IMG/VR virus record: IMGVR_UViG_3300049783_001127
Source of the DNA: a virus
Length of the DNA: 64,000 bases
Direction: 5' to 3' (one strand)
Shown: positions 12-60,571 of the stretch, piece by piece
How positions within the stretch are numbered: the first letter of the stretch is position 1
Layout of the letters: the number at the start of each line of letters is the position of its first letter
Translations under genes and position numbers: made by a program
The notes under the pieces: model-generated
What the model was told of the DNA's origin: nothing
Database searches by the model: none
Seen by the model: only the letters and a program-made list of their open reading frames with translations

Positions 12-3000
12 ATGCAGGACAACATGAAGTCCTTTACAGAAAAAGGTAATCTTCAAAAAGCGTATAGTGATAGAATTGAAGCTCTTGATGATTTTGAAGG
101 AAGAGTTAAAGCTTTATATTGGAATGCAGCTGTACTTGATGGTTCTGTTGATAGAATTAATGAGTACTTAAAAGATATGGTTGATCAACCGGATCAAGCT
201 AAAGCACTACACCAGATATCATTCTTTACACAAAGTATGGAGCAATGGAAAACTTATTTGCTTAATTTTCTAGAGTCTATGGAGAAAGTAGACATTGCTG
301 AAAATTCACCCATAGTTGCGGATATCAATGCTATTAAAGAGAAAATTGAAAGAACAGAAACTAGCATTAATAAAATATACAGGAAAGCTACAACAGATGT
401 ACTTATTGATTATGTGCAAGGGATCAATGCAGACATAATGAAAGCATCTGCAGATAGAATTAAGCGTTGGACTGATAGTGAAGGTAAACCTAATAGCAGA
501 CTATCAGCAGAATATATTGCTAAAGAGATTAAAGAAAGGGATGAAGCATACATCAGTAAAGATGATATGTTAGACTATATAATGGGTAAAAAAGGTGATA
601 TAGGTTTTATGAGTGCTTGGTTTGAAAACTATGCTTCAAGTCAAGATCCATCTATTGCTTCATTTGCTATGTATATAAAAAAGCATTTATCTGATGTAAG
701 TAATAAGGTTCACACTAAGCATAATGAATTTTTAACTAAGTTAGAACCTCTTATTGAAAGATTGGGTGTTAATCCTTCTCAGATTGATAAGTTTTCAGAT
801 AACTTTATTTTTGTAGATAAGACAGTAAGAAAAAATCCTGAGACGAATGAACTTGAAGAGTATGAAGTATACACATACTTGAATGAATTTAAGAACTATA
901 AATATGATAAAGCTATACTTACCGATAGGGTTGCAAAAGCTGAAGCATTAATGTTTGAAGATCCTTCAAATGAAGAAGTAAAAAAAGAATATATTGAAGC
1001 AGTAGGTGCCAAAATGGAGCATGAAAAGTATTTCTTTCATAAGGAATATATAGATGACTATTACTATGCTGATGATGTACTAGACACTACTGAAATTGGC
1101 CGTAAAGCCAAATCACTAAGAGCTGAAAAACTTGAACCTATTAGTGATTATGCTAAGCTACATAATGACAACTCAGAATTATATGAAAATTATGAAGCAC
1201 TAGATATATTCTGGAGAGAATATAGACAACTGTATTCTTTATATGATGAGTATGGAAAAGCTAAAATTGGTGAAGAACTTCAAATAGCCGAAGTACTCAG
1301 AGATCAAAGAGAAGCTAAGAAGCATTTTTATGAATACAATGAGATATCAGGTAAGTTTCAAATCACATACCAACACTTTAGAACTAAAGAAGGTATTAAA
1401 CTGGAACGTGAAGGTATGACCAAAGGTACGGATAAGTACAATGAAGAACTTGACCGTAGAACCAAGCTATGGACTGATAGAAATACACGCACTAAGATCA
1501 AAGATTCTTTCTATGAAGAAAAAGCTAAAATAGTAGATAGAATTAAATCTATTATGGAAGGTGCTAATAATGAAAAGGGTAACTATGATGTTGAGTATGA
1601 AACCATTATGGAAACTCTTAAAGGTAAAAAAGATGACAACGGCCAACCTGTTGCTACTGAAATGACTCCTGAATTACTTAAGAGTATTAAAGATCTTGAG
1701 CAAAAAATTCAAGATGGTAAAGATCAATTGATTGAAGCTAGTGGTTTGACTCCTAATGATTGGGCTATCCTTAAAGGTTTTTATAAAAGAATACAAGATA
1801 AAGATAAGCTTAACCAAAATGAGAGAGCCTTATTTAAAGAACTTACTGATAAGAAAAACAAAATGGGGCTTAGTAAAACAGCTAAAGCTCAGTTACTTAT
1901 ACAGTTTGAAAAACTAAATAACTTACAGTCTAAGATTGCTACTGATTATTACATTACCATAGTTAATGATTTTTATGGGGTTATTCAACAAGACAGTAAC
2001 ACAGAAAATCCTATAGACATTACAAATGAAAATGTTAACAAGTTTAATGATTATGAATTTGTACAAAGCTTGTTTAAAGAAAGTCCTGAATTTAAGATTT
2101 GGTTTGAAGACAATCATATTGAGAAAGAGGTATTTAATTGGCAAAAGAAAGATCTTGAAAAGGTATATGTTAGAACTGCAGCATGGTCTGTAACTAAACC
2201 TAAAAAAGATAAATACTATGAAACTACTGAAATTCTAGATGCTGATGGTAACACTATTAGTATAGACGGTATTCCTAGTATGAAATACTTTGACCGTACT
2301 GTAAAAAATCAATACAAAACAGGATATAACGCGTCAACAGGAACTATAAATCTTAAAGTGGGTGAACATATCAGCAGAGAAGGTTTATCCTTTCCAGATT
2401 TACCTTATGGGCTTAAGAAGATGGAAGAGCTCAAAGATAAGTATCCTAACAAGTATGCTGAACAAAACTTTGCATGGGATCATTATATTAATAGAGACTT
2501 TGAAAAGATTAAAAATGAGAATGGTGCTCAATATGAAGCTTTAGAACTCATTAAAGATTTCCATTTAGAAGCTCAAAAAAATCTTGAAAGAAATGGTATA
2601 CTAGGATTAGAGTTACCAAGATTTAGAAAAGATAGATATGAATACTTAAAATCAGGTACACTTAAAGAAGATGGTGCCGGTAAAATCCATGAATTCAAAC
2701 AGGGATTCTTACAATTTTGGGGTAAAAAGAGAGATGATTTAGAAGAAGGTCTTAACTATGACGCTCAGACAGCTATGGGTGAGATTGATTTGTATGCAGG
2801 TACAGAAGGTAAAGTTCCAGTAAGAGGTAAATATAATCTTGATTTAGGTCAAGTATCTAGAGATATCATTACGCGTGAGATGCAATACTATCTTTCTACT
2901 GAGCAAAACAGAAAACTTAGAGAAATACAACCAATTGCTAGAGCTTTACAGAAATTGGCTGTAGATAACAACCCTGCAGATGTTGAATCACTAGGAAAAC

Positions 3001-4517
3001 TTACTGCCACTCAAAGAAACATTGGACGTTTCAAATCTAAAGATAGTAATAACAGAGGAAAGGTTATAACTTCCATGGTTGAAACATTTTTTGAAGGAAA
3101 AAGATTATTTGAAGGAGGTAACAATAATGCTACTACTATTAAAGTAATGAACAATGCTTTGGGTATGGCATCACATGCTTTCTTTGCTTTTGATGTTACT
3201 TCAGCTATGAAGAACTTTATTGGTGCACAATTTCAAATTGCTTTAGAAGGCGCAGGAAGCAAGCATTTTAGATATAGTGATTGGCATGCAGGTAGACCAT
3301 GGGCTTCTAAAGCTATGTGGACAATATCAATGGATGTATATAGTACTAAAGCTAAAAGTTTGGATGTGCAAATTGTTGATGTGTTTGATGCTATTCAAGG
3401 TAGATTTGAAGAAAAGTTTGGTGAATCACCAGGTAGATCCATAGGTAGAGATATTGCCAGCTTAACTTGGATGACTTCTCATAGAAAATGGTTAGAAACT
3501 GAAGCATCACTTCAATTGTTTTCTGCAATAATGCAAGCAACTAAAGTAGATCAAGTACAAGAAGATGGTACTATAAAAAAAATAAAGTATATAAATGCTT
3601 GGGAGCTCAATGAAGAGACTAAAAGTATTCAGCTTAAGCCTGGTATAGATAAAGAATGGGATCTTAATGGTAGTAAGTTTGATGAAGTTAAATTTAAAAA
3701 TCATGAAGTATCAAACTTCTTACAAGGGGCTTATGCAAATTTTGATCAACCCATGATTAACAGAGCTTTAGCTTGGAGAATGGTGTCTTCAATGAGAAAG
3801 TTCTTTACTAAGATGTTACTTAACAGATATGGTTTTAGAGGTAGTTGGAGAGATCCAAAAGAAAGATACAATCTTCCTACTAACTCTATGCATATGGGAT
3901 TTTATGTACGTAACATGAAAACTATGATGAAGATCATAAGAAGTAAAGGTCAGTACATGATGATGATGACTAAAGATGAACAGAATGCTTTTAAGAAAGG
4001 TATCCTTGAGCTACTTAAATTATGGTTATTGCAAGCATCTTATATGTGGATATGGGGCTTCAATCCAGATGATGAAGACAGATGGAATAAACTTAAAGGT
4101 AAATCAGGTGCATTACCAACATTTTTTACAGATGAAGAATGGTCAGAAAATTGGAACTTAAGTGGATGGTTATCTAATCATACACTGCTTCTGGCCATGC
4201 ACGTAGAAGCAGAGAACGAACACTTTATTCCATTTCCTGGTTATGGTATGTCTGATATGATTAACATTACAAGTCAAACTTCAATTGCATCAGGTCCATC
4301 TATTGGGGCACTTAGCAAAATACTTACTAACGTAATATTTGCAATAGGTGGTGATGACTCAGTATACTACAAACAAGATACAGGAGCATTAAACGTTCAA
4401 CAAGAAGAAGAGTGGAAAGGGTGGAGAGAGATCTATAAAATGTTTGGTATGAAAGGTAAAATGATTGATCCTACTACTTCTATTAAAAACTTTCAAGGAA
4501 TGAGAAACAAAAACTAG
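12..4517 (+). CDS. Very large hypothetical protein, 5'-truncated at the window edge (1501 aa visible)
   Basis: Single uninterrupted ORF. The reading frame is open upstream of the listed ATG back to the window start. K/E-rich. No catalytic motif recognised. Ends at a hairpin terminator. Confidence 0.75.
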   Translation: MQDNMKSFTEKGNLQKAYSDRIEALDDFEGRVKALYWNAAVLDGSVDRINEYLKDMVDQPDQAKALHQISFFTQSMEQWKTYLLNFLESMEKVDIAENSPIVADINAIKEKIERTETSINKIYRKATTDVLIDYVQGINADIMKASADRIKRWTDSEGKPNSRLSAEYIAKEIKERDEAYISKDDMLDYIMGKKGDIGFMSAWFENYASSQDPSIASFAMYIKKHLSDVSNKVHTKHNEFLTKLEPLIERLGVNPSQIDKFSDNFIFVDKTVRKNPETNELEEYEVYTYLNEFKNYKYDKAILTDRVAKAEALMFEDPSNEEVKKEYIEAVGAKMEHEKYFFHKEYIDDYYYADDVLDTTEIGRKAKSLRAEKLEPISDYAKLHNDNSELYENYEALDIFWREYRQLYSLYDEYGKAKIGEELQIAEVLRDQREAKKHFYEYNEISGKFQITYQHFRTKEGIKLEREGMTKGTDKYNEELDRRTKLWTDRNTRTKIKDSFYEEKAKIVDRIKSIMEGANNEKGNYDVEYETIMETLKGKKDDNGQPVATEMTPELLKSIKDLEQKIQDGKDQLIEASGLTPNDWAILKGFYKRIQDKDKLNQNERALFKELTDKKNKMGLSKTAKAQLLIQFEKLNNLQSKIATDYYITIVNDFYGVIQQDSNTENPIDITNENVNKFNDYEFVQSLFKESPEFKIWFEDNHIEKEVFNWQKKDLEKVYVRTAAWSVTKPKKDKYYETTEILDADGNTISIDGIPSMKYFDRTVKNQYKTGYNASTGTINLKVGEHISREGLSFPDLPYGLKKMEELKDKYPNKYAEQNFAWDHYINRDFEKIKNENGAQYEALELIKDFHLEAQKNLERNGILGLELPRFRKDRYEYLKSGTLKEDGAGKIHEFKQGFLQFWGKKRDDLEEGLNYDAQTAMGEIDLYAGTEGKVPVRGKYNLDLGQVSRDIITREMQYYLSTEQNRKLREIQPIARALQKLAVDNNPADVESLGKLTATQRNIGRFKSKDSNNRGKVITSMVETFFEGKRLFEGGNNNATTIKVMNNALGMASHAFFAFDVTSAMKNFIGAQFQIALEGAGSKHFRYSDWHAGRPWASKAMWTISMDVYSTKAKSLDVQIVDVFDAIQGRFEEKFGESPGRSIGRDIASLTWMTSHRKWLETEASLQLFSAIMQATKVDQVQEDGTIKKIKYINAWELNEETKSIQLKPGIDKEWDLNGSKFDEVKFKNHEVSNFLQGAYANFDQPMINRALAWRMVSSMRKFFTKMLLNRYGFRGSWRDPKERYNLPTNSMHMGFYVRNMKTMMKIIRSKGQYMMMMTKDEQNAFKKGILELLKLWLLQASYMWIWGFNPDDEDRWNKLKGKSGALPTFFTDEEWSENWNLSGWLSNHTLLLAMHVEAENEHFIPFPGYGMSDMINITSQTSIASGPSIGALSKILTNVIFAIGGDDSVYYKQDTGALNVQQEEEWKGWREIYKMFGMKGKMIDPTTSIKNFQGMRNKN

Positions 4518-4540: not shown

Positions 4541-4582
4541 AAAAAAAAAGGGGAACTCCAAATTAATGAAGTTCCCCTTTTG
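4541..4582. terminator. Bidirectional rho-independent terminator between convergent genes
   Basis: A-run, then GGGGAACT(c)CA...TG(a)AGTTCCCC hairpin, then TTTTG. Lies between the + ORF ending at 4517 and the - ORF ending at 4761. Confidence 0.7.
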
Positions 4583-4760
4583 TCTTATTACTTAAAATTC
4601 TGAGTTGATTTTTGAGATGTACGAACTTTGTTTTTTATCAAACTTCAAGTCAGTCATGGCAATCTTAAAGACCCCGGACAACTTCTTCTTATCAAAAGTT
4701 ACTAATGCCCATGTTACGTCCATACTTATGTATGTGATGAACAGGTCTTTCTTATTGTGC

Positions 4761-5045
4761 TTAACTATCAGTTTCATATTCTTTAGTTTTATTTTCAAAT
4801 GTGTTACAGTCCTTCTGTATTACAAACGCTGTGAATTCTTTACCCCAATCCTTTTCAGGTTGGTTATGAATGGCTTTAACAAGAGAACTATTAGCAAACC
4901 CCAAAGGGATTGCAGATTTTCCTGAGTACCATGCATACAGATCATCTGTGTATTGTCCTTTACATTTGCCACATTCACAAGATCTCTCTTCTGCTTGTAT
5001 TAAACGGACCACATCTTGGCAGGCTTTACATAGAATCAGTTTCAT
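4761..5045 (-). CDS. Small Cys-rich hypothetical protein
   Basis: 94-aa ORF with CKAC...CECGKC motifs (zinc-binding-like). Overlaps the start of the macrodomain gene by 20 nt. Confidence 0.5.
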   Translation of the reverse strand: MKLILCKACQDVVRLIQAEERSCECGKCKGQYTDDLYAWYSGKSAIPLGFANSSLVKAIHNQPEKDWGKEFTAFVIQKDCNTFENKTKEYETDS

Positions 5046-5511
5046 CTCTTAATACAGTTGATGGATCAAAGATTACTACAGTCACATCCATATCAACTAA
5101 TTCTGTATGGATTAACTTAGAGACAATAGACCAGCTTCCGCCACCTAGACCACAACCAATTTGTGGGAGGCCTATTGTTTTACCTCTATAACGCTTATTG
5201 AGTTTTCTAAAGCAAAGTGTTAGTGCTTCATAATCAAGAGGCTGAGGGCCTCCTGTATCATATTGAGTATAACAGTTAGCTACAAGTGTACCTTGTATAT
5301 TTCTAACATCAATCATACCCAATTTATTAACAGCTCCCTTATAGCGAGCTTCTTCAAGTGGAAATTTGTCTGCACCGAAGTGCCTAGCAAATAAAGGAGC
5401 TATGCCAGCTCCCATCACACAATGACAATTGCAGCCATGGGCAATCATATCAAACTCATTCTTTAGAGCAAGTTTGATAAGATCCCCTTTTACTTCCTTA
5501 TAACTACCCAA
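5026..5511 (-). CDS. Macrodomain protein, TARG1/OARD1/DarG-like (ADP-ribose hydrolase family)
   Basis: IAHGCNCHCVMGAGIAPLF and LPQIGCGLGGGSW blocks match the two glycine-rich signature loops of TARG1-type macrodomains (human TARG1: HCISEDCRMGAGIA / PRIGCGLDRLQW). Confidence 0.7.
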   Translation of the reverse strand: MGSYKEVKGDLIKLALKNEFDMIAHGCNCHCVMGAGIAPLFARHFGADKFPLEEARYKGAVNKLGMIDVRNIQGTLVANCYTQYDTGGPQPLDYEALTLCFRKLNKRYRGKTIGLPQIGCGLGGGSWSIVSKLIHTELVDMDVTVVIFDPSTVLRDETDSM

Positions 5512-5749
5512 CAGTAATTAATTTTTCAATGTTGCTGATTACTTTACCGTTGCTACTAGTAAGCGTATCAAGAGTACTCGTTTCAGCTTGGAGAGCCTTG
5601 ATCTTTTCTTCATTTTGCTCTTTGATAACTTCTGCTTCATTGTTAGCTTCTTTTAATTGAACAATTGCTTTATGGAACATCCCTAAAGCATCATTTGTTT
5701 TTTCAGCTGGAGTCTGTATAACCCCAATCATTCCTGTTTTTCCAAACAT
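5504..5749 (-). CDS. Hypothetical coiled-coil protein
   Basis: 81-aa ORF, E/K-rich heptad-like sequence. Confidence 0.45.
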   Translation of the reverse strand: MFGKTGMIGVIQTPAEKTNDALGMFHKAIVQLKEANNEAEVIKEQNEEKIKALQAETSTLDTLTSSNGKVISNIEKLITVG

Positions 5750-5772: not shown

Positions 5773-7683
<1,911 letters not shown>

Positions 7684-7687
<4 letters not shown>

Positions 7688-7989
7688 TCTAATAATAGTT
7701 TAGTGTCTCCTGCACAGATATACAACTGTATGAGTTCCTGATCACAATCTAAACAAGTTTGTTTACTTTGCTTCAATGGTGCATCAAGTAAACTGTTATG
7801 TTCAAATCTTACATTTATCCCTGTAACATTTTCTGTCATAAACATAGGCAAGTAAATATTTTTATCACAACAAGTGCAAGCACCTTCTATAACAAACATT
7901 TCTCCCACTTGATCTATAACAGGGCAGAATAAAGGCGCCGGAAATGAGTTACTCATTGGTTTGATTTTTCCTACTGGTCTTCTAATCAT
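7684..7989 (-). CDS. Small zinc-ribbon-like protein (paralog of 7385..7687)
   Basis: CTCCDKNIY...CLDCDQ. 4-nt ATGA overlap with the neighbouring genes. Confidence 0.55.
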
Positions 7990-8201
7990 TACTCTACAAA
8001 TTTAGCATTTACTTTTAACATAAGCATCCTAAGTGCTGTATCTTTACAAGGAATACATGTACCATCAATAGGTCCACCTTTAATTGCAGTCTGACCACAT
8101 ATGGAACATTTATTAAATCTGCCTCCCCACATGAGTTGTTTTTCATGTTCAGTTGCTATTATTGCCATGGCTTTCCTTTGACTATCCTGCATAAAACTCA
8201 T
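7989..8201 (-). CDS. Small zinc-ribbon-like protein
   Basis: CSICGQ...CIPCKD. Ends KFVE* with a stop/start overlap. Confidence 0.55.
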   Translation of the reverse strand: MSFMQDSQRKAMAIIATEHEKQLMWGGRFNKCSICGQTAIKGGPIDGTCIPCKDTALRMLMLKVNAKFVE

Positions 8202-8395
8202 TCTACAAGTTTTGCTTTCTTCTGTGCTTTACAGAATTTTTTAAAGTTTTCATTACAATCATTACAGAATGGTCTTACATCATGACTCCGCACAGGCCAA
8301 TAATTATTATCACATCCTTCACAAGTAGGTAGTTGAGTATTATAAATTTTTAGGTTTGCACTAGCTAACTGTTTCCACAGACCATCCTTACTCAT
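8198..8395 (-). CDS. Small Cys-rich zinc-binding-like protein
   Basis: CEGCDNNYW...CNDCNENFKKFC. Ends KLVE* with an ATGA overlap. Confidence 0.55.
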   Translation of the reverse strand: MSKDGLWKQLASANLKIYNTQLPTCEGCDNNYWPVRSHDVRPFCNDCNENFKKFCKAQKKAKLVE

Positions 8396-60295: not shown

Positions 60296-60571
60296 ATGAG
60301 CGTAAGATTTAAACCAATGGGAGATGGAGTTCTAATTGCTCCAGTTATCCCACCAAAAGAAACAATATCCCCAGCAGGGATTGTAACAACAGTAAATACA
60401 CCTGAGCTTCCTACAAGAGGTGATATAGTAATTACAGGAGAAGAAGTAAAATACACTACAAAAGGTGATACTGTCCTCTTCGGTATACATGCAGGTAAAG
60501 ATGTAGAAGTAGATGGAGTAGTTTACAAATTAATCAAAGAAGGAAATTTAGATGGATTTTTTCTAGATTAA
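60296..60571 (+). CDS. groS: GroES-like co-chaperonin (Cpn10/gp31-like)
   Basis: F-K-P-M-G-D-G-V-L-I start and the size (91 aa) match Cpn10; the mobile-loop region is proline-rich. Beta-barrel-type sequence. Confidence 0.55.
   Translation: MSVRFKPMGDGVLIAPVIPPKETISPAGIVTTVNTPELPTRGDIVITGEEVKYTTKGDTVLFGIHAGKDVEVDGVVYKLIKEGNLDGFFLD

What the first reader, a model, noticed from the sequence alone, without database searches (positions are those of the whole stretch)
5026..5511. Phage-encoded TARG1/DarG-type macrodomain next to GroEL - candidate counter-defence ADP-ribose hydrolase
The two signature loops (HGCNCHCVMGAGIA and IGCGLGGGSW) match the TARG1/OARD1/DarG macrodomain subfamily. Those enzymes remove ADP-ribose from protein glutamates or, in DarG, from thymidine in ssDNA. 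In a lytic phage, such an enzyme is a plausible antagonist of host ADP-ribosyltransferase-based immunity (DarTG-like toxins, or NAD-derived signalling and damage). It could also regulate phage-directed ADP-ribosylation. The gene overlaps a small Cys-rich ORF (4761..5045) that may be a partner.
Basis: partly seen in the sequence, partly recalled or inferred. Interest (0 to 1): 0.75.

Follow-up and report, generated by a model that had tools for sequence, protein, structure and literature searches.

The report
Phage stand-alone ADP-ribose-removing macrodomain
This phage gene encodes a small ADP-ribose-handling enzyme from a very common phage family, two members of which were recently shown to disarm bacterial NAD/ADP-ribose-based defences, so it is a new member of a known kind and not a new system.

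Summary
The ORF at 5026..5511 (-) is real. It encodes a 161-aa stand-alone macrodomain: Pfam Macro above threshold, PHROG_335 E 8e-51, AlphaFold pLDDT 93.5. The best structural matches are TARG1, BT1257, DarG, Poa1p and SCO6735.

The family occurs in more than 2000 phage genomes. Two homologues, each about 33-37% identical to the query, have reported counter-defence roles. T4 Tk.4 ("AdfM") is needed to resist DarTG2. Vibrio phage Gary Adpp is an ADPR-1''-phosphate phosphatase that sits inside the NARP1 NAD+-rebuilding operon and counters aRES.

The window has no NARP1, NADAR or ART gene in 64 kb, and the protein lacks the Arg32/Arg35 pair found in operon-embedded Adpp proteins. I therefore favour an AdfM-like role, removing ADP-ribose from phage DNA (about 0.45). 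Adpp-like phosphatase activity (about 0.2) and other ADP-ribose conjugates (about 0.25) remain open.

The Cys-rich ORF is not a conserved partner, and the GroEL adjacency is incidental. Verdict: new member of a known kind, modest interest.

The parts
5026..5511 (-). Stand-alone macrodomain gene (161 aa, TTG start). Loop 1 is H25-G-C-N28-C-H-C-V32-M-G-A35-G-I-A. The catalytic-position residue is Gln83, in N79-C-Y-T-Q83-Y. Loop 2 is I118-G-C-G-L-G123-G-G-S-W127.
5504..5749 (-). 81-aa acidic, coiled-coil-like ORF directly upstream. Its stop overlaps the macrodomain start by 8 nt, which suggests translational coupling. No known domain.
   Evidence: Searches found no significant family. A homologue sits directly upstream of the macrodomain gene in L095, L096, L097, L012 and L013, but those loci belong to the same syntenic phage lineage, so this shows synteny and not a functional link.
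4761..5045 (-). Cys-rich 94-aa ORF (CxxC ... CxCxxC) downstream, overlapping the macrodomain gene by 20 nt. It is a variable accessory gene in the same operon and not a conserved partner.
   Evidence: 89% identical with the same overlap in L097; absent in L095, L096, L012 and L013; no homologue beside the macrodomain gene in T4, the Cellulophaga phage or L008-L010. No Pfam, PADLOC or NCBIfam hit.
4592..4798 (-). Small basic ORF (61-68 aa), the last gene of the leftward operon. It is conserved in the lineage.
   Evidence: 74-93% identical in L005, L095, L096 and L097, and 31% in L012.
4546..4581 (-). Strong hairpin (15-bp stem, 6 G-C pairs) followed by a T-run. It is the likely terminator of the leftward operon, and it lies between that operon and the convergent giant gene.
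5773..7401 (-). GroEL-type chaperonin (542 aa), upstream in the same leftward gene string. Its position here is specific to this phage.
   Evidence: 58-60% identity to phage GroEL/Cpn60. Absent at this position in L012, L013 and L095. Present near the macrodomain gene in L030 and L033.

Best explanation
The gene encodes a catalytically competent, stand-alone ('orphan antitoxin-like') macrodomain of the phage Tk.4/PHROG_335 family. Two glycine-rich loops hold the ADP-ribose. Asn28, His25 and Gln83 surround the distal ribose, and the enzyme hydrolyses whatever is attached at C1'' of that ribose. Gln83 takes the place of the Lys used by TARG1 and DarG, as in SCO6735. The gene lies in a leftward string of same-strand genes that also holds the replication genes. 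Its most likely job is the one assigned to T4 Tk.4 (AdfM): removing ADP-ribose that a host DarT2-type toxin attaches to thymidines in single-stranded phage DNA, so that replication can continue. Shown here: the fold, the class, the conserved active-site residues, and homology to the characterised proteins. Inferred: the substrate (ADP-ribosyl-thymidine in DNA) and the counter-defence role in this particular phage.
For: Fold and class: Pfam Macro above threshold; AlphaFold2 pLDDT 93.5; top Foldseek hits TARG1, BT1257, DarG, Poa1p and SCO6735; phage Tk.4 proteins among the top viral hits. Active site: H25, N28, G36, Q83, G119 and G125 are invariant in 120 relatives. N28 aligns with PhiKZ AdfM N23, whose mutation reduces activity. 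Q83 aligns with SCO6735 Gln85, which is essential for removing ADP-ribose from thymidine in DNA. Homology to T4 Tk.4: BLASTP E 9e-23 against the AR1 orthologue; hhalign 99.7% probability against T4 Tk.4. A T4 tk.4 knockout becomes sensitive to DarTG2. The DarG HMMs match the macrodomain half, 52 bits in PADLOC against 36 bits for T4 Tk.4. Context: Pfam and PHROG scans of all ORFs in the 64-kb window found no Adps, Namat, NMNAT or NADAR, so a phosphatase that feeds NARP1 would have no visible partner. The nearest long relative, L012, has none within 10 kb either. The protein has V32/A35, whereas Gary and Thalassa Adpp and all three strict Adps-macro-Namat loci have R32/R35. NADAR, the anti-DarT1 enzyme family, lies within 4 kb of the macrodomain gene in 8 of 71 non-redundant related loci, including the 59%-identical L008. 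About 2000 phage records carry the family, against roughly 15% of 859 NARP1 operons carrying a macrodomain, so most members are not NARP1-linked.
Against: No assay exists for this protein. The T4 evidence is genetic and comes from a preprint, and enzymatic removal of ADP-ribose from DNA by Tk.4 was inferred there, not shown. The query's family is slightly closer to the Adpp lineage than to T4 Tk.4: hhalign score 195 against 160, and it falls in the same half of an unbootstrapped NJ tree. About a quarter of related loci, and about 40% of those at least 50% identical by my hand count of the table, have NARP1 genes within 4 kb. Lys34 and Lys89 of SCO6735, which help DNA-substrate activity, have no equivalents here. 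The rest of this phage genome is not available, so NARP1 could lie outside the window. The host and its defence systems are unknown.
Confidence: 0.45

Rival explanations
1. Adpp-like ADPR-1''-phosphate phosphatase. The enzyme removes the 1''-phosphate that RES-type (aRES) NADases leave on ADP-ribose, so that a NARP1 pathway (Adps plus Namat) can rebuild NAD+.
For: Gary Adpp (KNV71_gp137), shown biochemically to convert ADPR-1P to ADPR, is a homologue: 37% identity; Thalassa orthologue BLASTP E 4e-25; hhalign 99.9%. In 71 non-redundant related viral loci, Adps-like genes lie within 4 kb of the macrodomain gene in 18, NAMPT-like genes in 17, and both in 12. The 57%-identical relatives L010 and L014 sit inside NARP1 clusters. 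His25 equals Poa1p His23, a residue the depositors mutated. The query falls in the NARP1-rich half of the NJ tree.
Against: No Adps or Namat lies in the 64-kb window or within 10 kb in L012. In the Gary system all three genes were needed, so a lone phosphatase should not restore NAD+. The query has V32/A35, whereas Gary, Thalassa and every strict Adps-macro-Namat locus have R32/R35. Fisher p=0.03, but the loci are not phylogenetically independent. Position 32 equals Poa1p Ser30 and is a non-polar Val here.
Confidence: 0.2
2. A hydrolase for another ADP-ribose conjugate, or a generalist. Candidates are protein Glu/Asp-ADP-ribose, ADP-ribosylated RNA (CmdTAC-type defence), O-acetyl-ADP-ribose, and ADPR-based immune signals such as His-ADPR. 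It could also act as an eraser that limits ADP-ribosylation made by the phage's own injected transferase.
For: Relatives in this class act on several substrates. SCO6735 and TARG1 act on both DNA and proteins. TARG1 is deposited in the PDB as O-acetyl-ADP-ribose deacetylase 1. The convergent neighbour gene (12..4517) is the C-terminal three quarters of a ~2000-aa protein. Its 51%-identical orthologue in L012 carries an N-terminal match to ART-PolyVal, E 1.2e-6. Macrodomain genes of this family also sit next to NARP2 genes (NMNAT-Nudix plus NAMPT), where a 1''-phosphatase is not needed. That pattern fits a general 'anti-defence island' enzyme.
Against: The ART-PolyVal match is below Pfam's gathering score (29.7 against 31.2 bits), covers only 62 of 140 profile positions, and the corresponding N-terminus lies outside the window. 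The two genes are convergent, not co-transcribed, and their adjacency is lineage synteny. No member of the family has been shown to act on these substrates.
Confidence: 0.25
3. A non-catalytic ADP-ribose binder, or a degenerate enzyme retained for another reason.
For: It lacks the Lys/Asp dyad of TARG1 and the Lys of DarG. Position 123 is Gly here, whereas more than 90% of relatives have Ala.
Against: Every residue that is invariant across 120 relatives is present (H25, N28, Q83 and the loop glycines). Two Gln-type relatives are active enzymes: SCO6735 and Gary Adpp.
Confidence: 0.05

Closest known systems
T4 Tk.4 = AdfM (anti-DarT factor macrodomain), PHROG_335; bioRxiv 10.1101/2025.11.20.689424
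   Same: Stand-alone macrodomain of about 155-160 aa in a lytic phage. 33-35% identity, hhalign 99.7%. Shared AHGCNC..MGxG loop, N-x-Y-T-Q motif with Gln at the catalytic position, and IGxG..G.W loop. Best PDB sequence hit is BT1257 for both. Neither has a DarT-binding C-terminal domain.
   Different: It lies in the other half of the family tree. Loop residues differ: T32/S35 and IGAGIGKG in T4 against V32/A35 and IGCGLGGG here. The genome neighbourhood is different (vs/tk region in T4). The anti-DarTG2 phenotype has been shown only for T4.
Adpp, the ADPR-1''-phosphate phosphatase of NARP1-AP (Vibrio phage Gary KNV71_gp137); bioRxiv 10.64898/2026.01.28.702374
   Same: Same family and size. 37% identity. 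Gln at the catalytic position and an identical IGCGL.GG.W loop. The query's family profile scores slightly higher against this lineage than against Tk.4.
   Different: Adpp is embedded between Adps and Namat, and the window has neither gene. Adpp has R32 and R35 in loop 1 (CRMGRG), whereas the query has V32/A35.
SCO6735 (Streptomyces coelicolor) and BT1257 (Bacteroides thetaiotaomicron): bacterial ALC1-like macrodomains with Gln in place of the catalytic Lys; PMC9411070
   Same: Best PDB sequence hits (E 1e-10 and 1e-9). Gln83 aligns with the essential Gln85. Loop 2 is GCGL(A/G)GG.W. TARG1 Asp125 is absent. SCO6735 removes ADP-ribose from thymidine in DNA and rescues DarT toxicity.
   Different: Only about 23-28% identity. 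The query lacks Lys34 (it has Ala) and the longer mobile loop with Lys89 and Lys93; its loop is 3 residues shorter. Its loop 1 is MGAGIA, as in TARG1, and not GWGKGF.
Human TARG1/OARD1 and bacterial DarG2 macrodomains; PhiKZ gp104, also called AdfM (PMC13309987)
   Same: Same macrodomain class by structure (Foldseek E 5e-11 to 5e-8, TM about 0.7-0.8). The MGAGIA loop is identical to TARG1. N28 equals the PhiKZ AdfM N23 catalytic-site Asn.
   Different: TARG1, DarG and PhiKZ AdfM all carry the catalytic Lys (ITK / PTK), and the query has Gln. PhiKZ AdfM scores 133 bits on the DarG model against 52 for the query, and is only marginally similar to the query (E 0.007). DarG has a second, DarT-binding domain and a neighbouring darT gene.

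Membership tests
Macrodomain (Pfam PF01661) | Profile match above the curated gathering score | tested here: met
   26.7 bits against a cut-off of 22, covering profile positions 2-117 of 118
Macrodomain (Pfam PF01661) | Three-layer alpha/beta/alpha macro fold | tested here: met
   AlphaFold2 pLDDT 93.5, pTM 0.88. 213 PDB chains at E<=1e-3; all but two of the 50 listed are macrodomains, the exceptions being designed serine hydrolases.
ALC1-like / TARG1-DarG class of macrodomains | Closest structures and sequences are TARG1, DarG, SCO6735, BT1257 and Poa1p, not MacroD/Af1521 or viral nsP3 types | tested here: met
   Foldseek ranks 1-18, 20 and 21 are these proteins; alphavirus and coronavirus macrodomains follow. 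The phmmer PDB hits are the same set.
TARG1/OARD1 | Catalytic Lys84-Asp125 dyad | tested here: not met
   Lys84 aligns with Gln83 and Asp125 with Gly123 (HMMER alignment; MAFFT alignment)
DarG antitoxin (NCBIfam NF048014, PADLOC DarG) | Equivalog-level score; the two-domain protein of about 330 aa with a C-terminal DarT-binding domain | tested here: not met
   48.6 bits against a cut-off of 250. Only profile positions 5-153 of 338 are matched. The protein is 161 aa.
DarG antitoxin (NCBIfam NF048014, PADLOC DarG) | Catalytic Lys (Lys80 in Thermus DarG) | tested here: not met
   DarG has PTK; the query has YTQ
DarG antitoxin (NCBIfam NF048014, PADLOC DarG) | Adjacent darT toxin gene | tested here: not met
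   The neighbours are an 81-aa ORF and a Cys-rich ORF with no PADLOC, NCBIfam or Pfam hit. Pfam scans of the remaining window ORFs list no DarT or other ART family.
SCO6735/BT1257 subclass | Gln at the position of the TARG1/DarG catalytic Lys (Gln85, essential in SCO6735) | tested here: met
   Gln83 aligns with Gln85 and is invariant in 120 relatives
SCO6735/BT1257 subclass | Lys34 in loop 1, and an extended mobile loop with Lys89 and Lys93 | tested here: not met
   Lys34 aligns with Ala35. The loop is 3 residues shorter and has no Lys.
Phage Tk.4/AdfM-Adpp family (PHROG_335) | Profile match and stand-alone architecture of about 150-170 aa | tested here: met
   PHROG_335 E 8.1e-51 over residues 1-151. 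hhalign 99.7% to T4 Tk.4 and 99.9% to Thalassa Adpp.
AdfM function (T4 Tk.4 type) | Protects the phage from DarTG2; removes ADP-ribose from DarT2-modified DNA | not testable with these tools
   Needs plaque assays or biochemistry. Only homology is available.
Adpp / NARP1-AP | Gene embedded in, or adjacent to, an Adps-Namat (NARP1) operon | tested here: not met
   No Pribosyltran or NAPRTase family among any ORF of the 64-kb window. The genome outside the window could not be retrieved.
Adpp / NARP1-AP | Basic pair R32/R35 in loop 1. This is my own inferred signature, from Gary, Thalassa and three strict Adps-macro-Namat loci. | tested here: not met
   The query has V32/A35. The signature is an inference and not an established criterion.
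Adpp / NARP1-AP | ADPR-1''-phosphate phosphatase activity | not testable with these tools
   Needs LC-MS with ADPR-1P, as in the experiments described

The most novel reading that the evidence does not exclude
This is a stand-alone, Gln-type macrodomain with no NARP1 partner, no DarG-type Lys and no Adpp-type Arg pair. It could be specialised for a third ADP-ribose-1'' conjugate. One possibility is destroying ADPR-based immune signals such as His-ADPR of type II Thoeris. Another is erasing ADP-ribosylation written by the phage's own injected polyvalent-protein transferase. Either would make the Tk.4/Adpp family a three-way (or wider) radiation of substrate specificities, set by loop-1 positions 32 and 35.
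Probability: 0.12. Interest if true: 0.65.

Novelty: new member of a known kind. Interest (0 to 1): 0.3.

Why it matters
For this window, very little: it adds one more member, from an uncultured low-GC phage, to a family present in thousands of phage genomes. Its counter-defence roles were published in 2025-2026. The family-level picture is more useful. T4 Tk.4 (named AdfM, anti-DarTG2) and Vibrio phage Gary Adpp (ADPR-1''-phosphate phosphatase, anti-aRES) are homologues in one PHROG, about 33% identical. Both carry the SCO6735-type Gln. No paper in the searched library mentions both names. The name AdfM is also used for a different, Lys-type, DarG2-like lineage (PhiKZ gp104). Annotation transfer within this family ('phosphatase', 'AdfM', 'DarG-like') is therefore unsafe without context. 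Loop-1 positions 32 and 35, together with NARP1 adjacency, are a testable handle on specificity.

Tried and rejected
- **Near-identical DNA in cultured phages:** none found. The phage is uncultured. Its GroEL is closest to Bacteroides phage GroEL at about 60% identity, and its DNA polymerase is about 33% identical to various phages.
- **Cys-rich ORF as partner:** rejected. There is no homologue next to the macrodomain gene outside one close relative.
- **81-aa upstream ORF as a split DarG C-terminal domain:** it has no DarG, PADLOC or NCBIfam match. Its conservation reflects lineage synteny.
- **GroEL linkage:** not conserved in the syntenic relatives.
- **DarG equivalog membership:** rejected on score, length and the catalytic Lys.
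- **Recovering the rest of the genome to look for NARP1:** an exact 44-mer search found nothing in IMG/VR or the JGI metagenomes. The exact protein occurs only on 6.4-kb and 1.5-kb Logan contigs.
- **Literature:** the Poa1p structure paper is not in the library, so the roles of Poa1p H23, S30 and F152 rest only on the titles of the PDB mutant entries.
- **Failed or uninformative steps:** a regex count of the catalytic Gln was badly designed and is ignored; the alignment is used instead. TNTC motif frequency in the window is as expected from base composition (2342 observed, 2418 expected), which is uninformative.
- **ART-PolyVal lead in the neighbouring giant protein:** sub-threshold and outside the window, with no PDB sequence match.
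Full report
**Observation.** The minus-strand ORF 5026..5511 exists as described. It is 161 aa with a TTG start, and it contains both quoted motifs: HGCNCHCVMGAGIA at residues 25-38 and IGCGLGGGSW at residues 118-127. TTG at 5511 is the first start codon after an in-frame stop. It overlaps the stop of an upstream 81-aa ORF by 8 nt, and close homologues start with the same residues. It is a real, conserved gene: Pfam Macro at 26.7 bits against a gathering score of 22, PHROG_335 at E 8e-51, 527 homologues in the large protein collection, and tblastn matches in 2008 of 50,697 phage records.

**Fold and class.** An AlphaFold2 model built on a 120-sequence alignment is confident, with pLDDT 93.5 and pTM 0.88. 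Against the PDB, Foldseek ranks TARG1, BT1257, Thermus and Mycobacterium DarG, yeast Poa1p and SCO6735 first (E 5e-11 to 8e-8). Alphavirus and coronavirus MacroD-type domains come after them. Sequence searches of the PDB return the same set. The DarG models of PADLOC (52 bits) and NCBIfam (48.6 bits against a cut-off of 250) match, but only over their N-terminal macrodomain half. The protein is not a DarG, because it lacks the second, DarT-binding domain and falls far below the equivalog score.

**Active site.** In the HMMER and MAFFT alignments, TARG1 Lys84 and DarG Lys80 align with Gln83 of this protein, and TARG1 Asp125 aligns with Gly123. This is the arrangement described for SCO6735, where Gln85 replaces the Lys and is essential. 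SCO6735 removes ADP-ribose from thymidine in DNA and rescues cells from DarT (PMC9411070). Gln83, His25, Asn28 and the loop glycines are invariant in 120 relatives. Asn28 aligns with Asn23 of PhiKZ AdfM, whose mutation lowers activity. SCO6735 Lys34 and its longer Lys-bearing mobile loop have no equivalents here. The enzyme looks active, but it is mechanistically of the Gln type and not the TARG1/DarG Lys type.

**What the family is known to do.** The literature holds two relevant results.
- T4 tk.4 was the single hit in a transposon screen on a DarTG2 host. A clean knockout sensitised T4, and the gene was named adfM. Enzymatic removal of ADP-ribose from DNA was inferred, not shown (bioRxiv 10.1101/2025.11.20.689424). 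The query is 33-35% identical to Tk.4 (BLASTP E 9e-23 against the AR1 orthologue; hhalign 99.7% against T4 Tk.4), and Tk.4 also carries the Gln.
- About 15% of NARP1 operons carry a macrodomain gene. The one from Vibrio phage Gary (KNV71_gp137, 'Adpp') converts ADPR-1''-phosphate to ADPR. Together with Adps and Namat it overcomes the aRES NADase, and all three genes are required (bioRxiv 10.64898/2026.01.28.702374).

I retrieved Gary Adpp and its Thalassa orthologue. They are 37-38% identical to the query (E 4e-25; hhalign 99.9%) and 33% identical to Tk.4. The query, AdfM(T4) and Adpp are thus roughly equidistant members of one family, PHROG_335.

A third protein also called AdfM, PhiKZ gp104, removes DarT2-made ADP-ribose from DNA (PMC13309987). 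It belongs to a different lineage, Lys-type and DarG2-like. It scores 133 bits on the DarG model and E 1e-24 to M. tuberculosis DarG, and it is only marginally similar to the query.

**Choosing between the two roles.**
- *Context in the window.* Pfam and PHROG scans of every ORF in the 64 kb found replication genes, GroEL, GroES, MoxR/VWA, ligase and others. They found no Adps (Prs-like), Namat or NAMPT, NMNAT, NADAR or ADP-ribosyltransferase. The nearest long relative (L012, 67-70% identical macrodomain, syntenic) has none within 10 kb.
- *Context in the wider family.* Among 71 non-redundant IMG/VR loci, an Adps-like gene lies within 4 kb of the macrodomain gene in 18, a NAMPT-like gene in 17, both in 12, NMNAT-Nudix in 7 and NADAR in 8. 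The family therefore lives in NAD/ADP-ribose counter-defence neighbourhoods of several kinds.
- *Sequence signature.* Gary Adpp, Thalassa Adpp and all three loci with a strict Adps-macro-Namat arrangement carry Arg at loop-1 positions 32 and 35 (CRMGRG or CRMKRG). The query has Val32 and Ala35, T4 Tk.4 has Thr and Ser, and most of the family has Thr and Ala. Position 35 corresponds to SCO6735 Lys34, which contacts the distal ribose and phosphate. Position 32 corresponds to Poa1p Ser30. The association with NARP1 context is modest (Fisher p=0.03), and the loci are not phylogenetically independent.
- *Phylogeny.* An unbootstrapped NJ tree places the query with the Adpp lineage and most NARP1-linked loci, and places Tk.4 in the other half. 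The family profile scores 195 against Adpp and 160 against Tk.4. These two results pull towards Adpp.

The rest of this genome could not be retrieved. Taking all this together, a lone phosphatase without NARP1 has no demonstrated use, and most members of the family are not NARP1-linked. I therefore favour the AdfM-like DNA de-ADP-ribosylation role at about 0.45, the Adpp-like role at about 0.2, other substrates or a generalist enzyme at about 0.25, and a non-catalytic protein at about 0.05.

**Operon and neighbours.** The gene lies near the end of a long run of same-strand (leftward) genes: GroEL (5773..7401), the 81-aa ORF (5504..5749), the macrodomain gene, the Cys-rich ORF (4761..5045), and a 61-68-aa basic ORF (4592..4798). 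These are followed by a strong hairpin terminator at 4546..4581. The terminator faces the 3' end of a giant rightward gene.

The Cys-rich ORF is a real gene: it is 89% identical, with the same 20-nt overlap, in L097. It is missing between the macrodomain gene and the small basic ORF in L095 and L096, and it is absent in L012 and L013. Nothing homologous follows the macrodomain gene in T4, the Cellulophaga phage or the other loci. It is a variable accessory gene and not a partner.

The 81-aa ORF always precedes the macrodomain gene in this lineage. However, those loci are syntenic relatives, with DNA polymerase 64-75% identical, so this is not independent evidence of a functional pair. GroEL is absent from this position in L012, L013 and L095.

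**A side lead.** The giant ORF 12..4517 runs off the window's left edge. It is the C-terminal part of a roughly 2000-aa protein. Its 51%-identical orthologue in L012 has an N-terminal match to ART-PolyVal, the ADP-ribosyltransferase domain of polyvalent proteins. That match is just below threshold at 29.7 bits against 31.2. The match is weak, however, and the domain lies outside the window. The two genes are also convergent, and their adjacency is lineage synteny.

**Verdict.** The gene is a new member of a known and very common phage family whose counter-defence roles are already published. Interest is modest. The remaining question is which of the family's two documented activities, or a third, this stand-alone V32/A35 form performs.

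Noticed in passing
window 12..4517 (+); L012:11530-17604 (-): The giant ORF runs off the left edge of the window. It is the C-terminal ~1500 aa of a ~2000-aa protein. Its 51%-identical orthologue in L012 has an N-terminal, sub-threshold match to ART-PolyVal (29.7 bits against a gathering score of 31.2; residues 80-141, containing a YRGD...GIYLA motif). In L012 a second giant gene (product 3736 aa) lies next to it.
   Followed up: partly
window 5504..5749 (-): An 81-aa acidic, coiled-coil-like ORF with no known domain overlaps the macrodomain start by 8 nt. It is found directly upstream of the macrodomain gene in L095, L096, L097, L012 and L013, all of which are syntenic relatives.
   Followed up: partly
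window 7385..8395 (-): Four consecutive small ORFs (65-101 aa) rich in CxxC pairs lie upstream of GroEL and have no family match. Together with the Cys-rich ORF 4761..5045, this phage carries many small zinc-ribbon-like genes.
   Followed up: no
window 5773..7401 (-) and probably 60296..60571 (+): The phage encodes GroEL and, about 53 kb away, a GroES/Cpn10-like protein. One window ORF matches Cpn10 at E 4e-8, and a weak tblastn hit to E. coli GroES falls at 60302..60439. GroEL also lies 0.4 kb and 4.3 kb from the macrodomain gene in the unrelated loci L030 and L033.
   Followed up: partly
L013-L092 (IMG/VR relatives); L008, L009, L010: Macrodomain genes of this family sit within 4 kb of Adps-like (18 of 71 non-redundant loci), NAMPT-like (17), NMNAT-Nudix (7), NADAR (8), nucleoside 2-deoxyribosyltransferase-like (7) and YAcAr/SLOG (5) genes. 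These look like NAD/ADP-ribose counter-defence islands.
   Followed up: yes
L015, L022, L028, L055; L093:3001-3474; L094:2501-2977: Macrodomains embedded in Adps-macro-Namat operons carry Arg at loop-1 positions 32 and 35. The IMG/VR clade also has Ser-His in loop 2 (IGSHLAGG). This is a candidate specificity signature for the ADPR-1''-phosphate phosphatase activity.
   Followed up: partly
literature: The name AdfM is used for two non-orthologous phage macrodomains: PhiKZ gp104 (Lys-type, DarG2-like) and T4 Tk.4 (Gln-type). T4 Tk.4 and Gary Adpp are homologues (33% identical) with different reported functions. No paper in the searched library mentions both AdfM and Adpp.
   Followed up: partly
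window 4546..4581: A 15-bp-stem hairpin flanked by an A-run and a T-run lies between the convergent giant gene and the macrodomain operon. It could terminate transcription in both directions.
   Followed up: no
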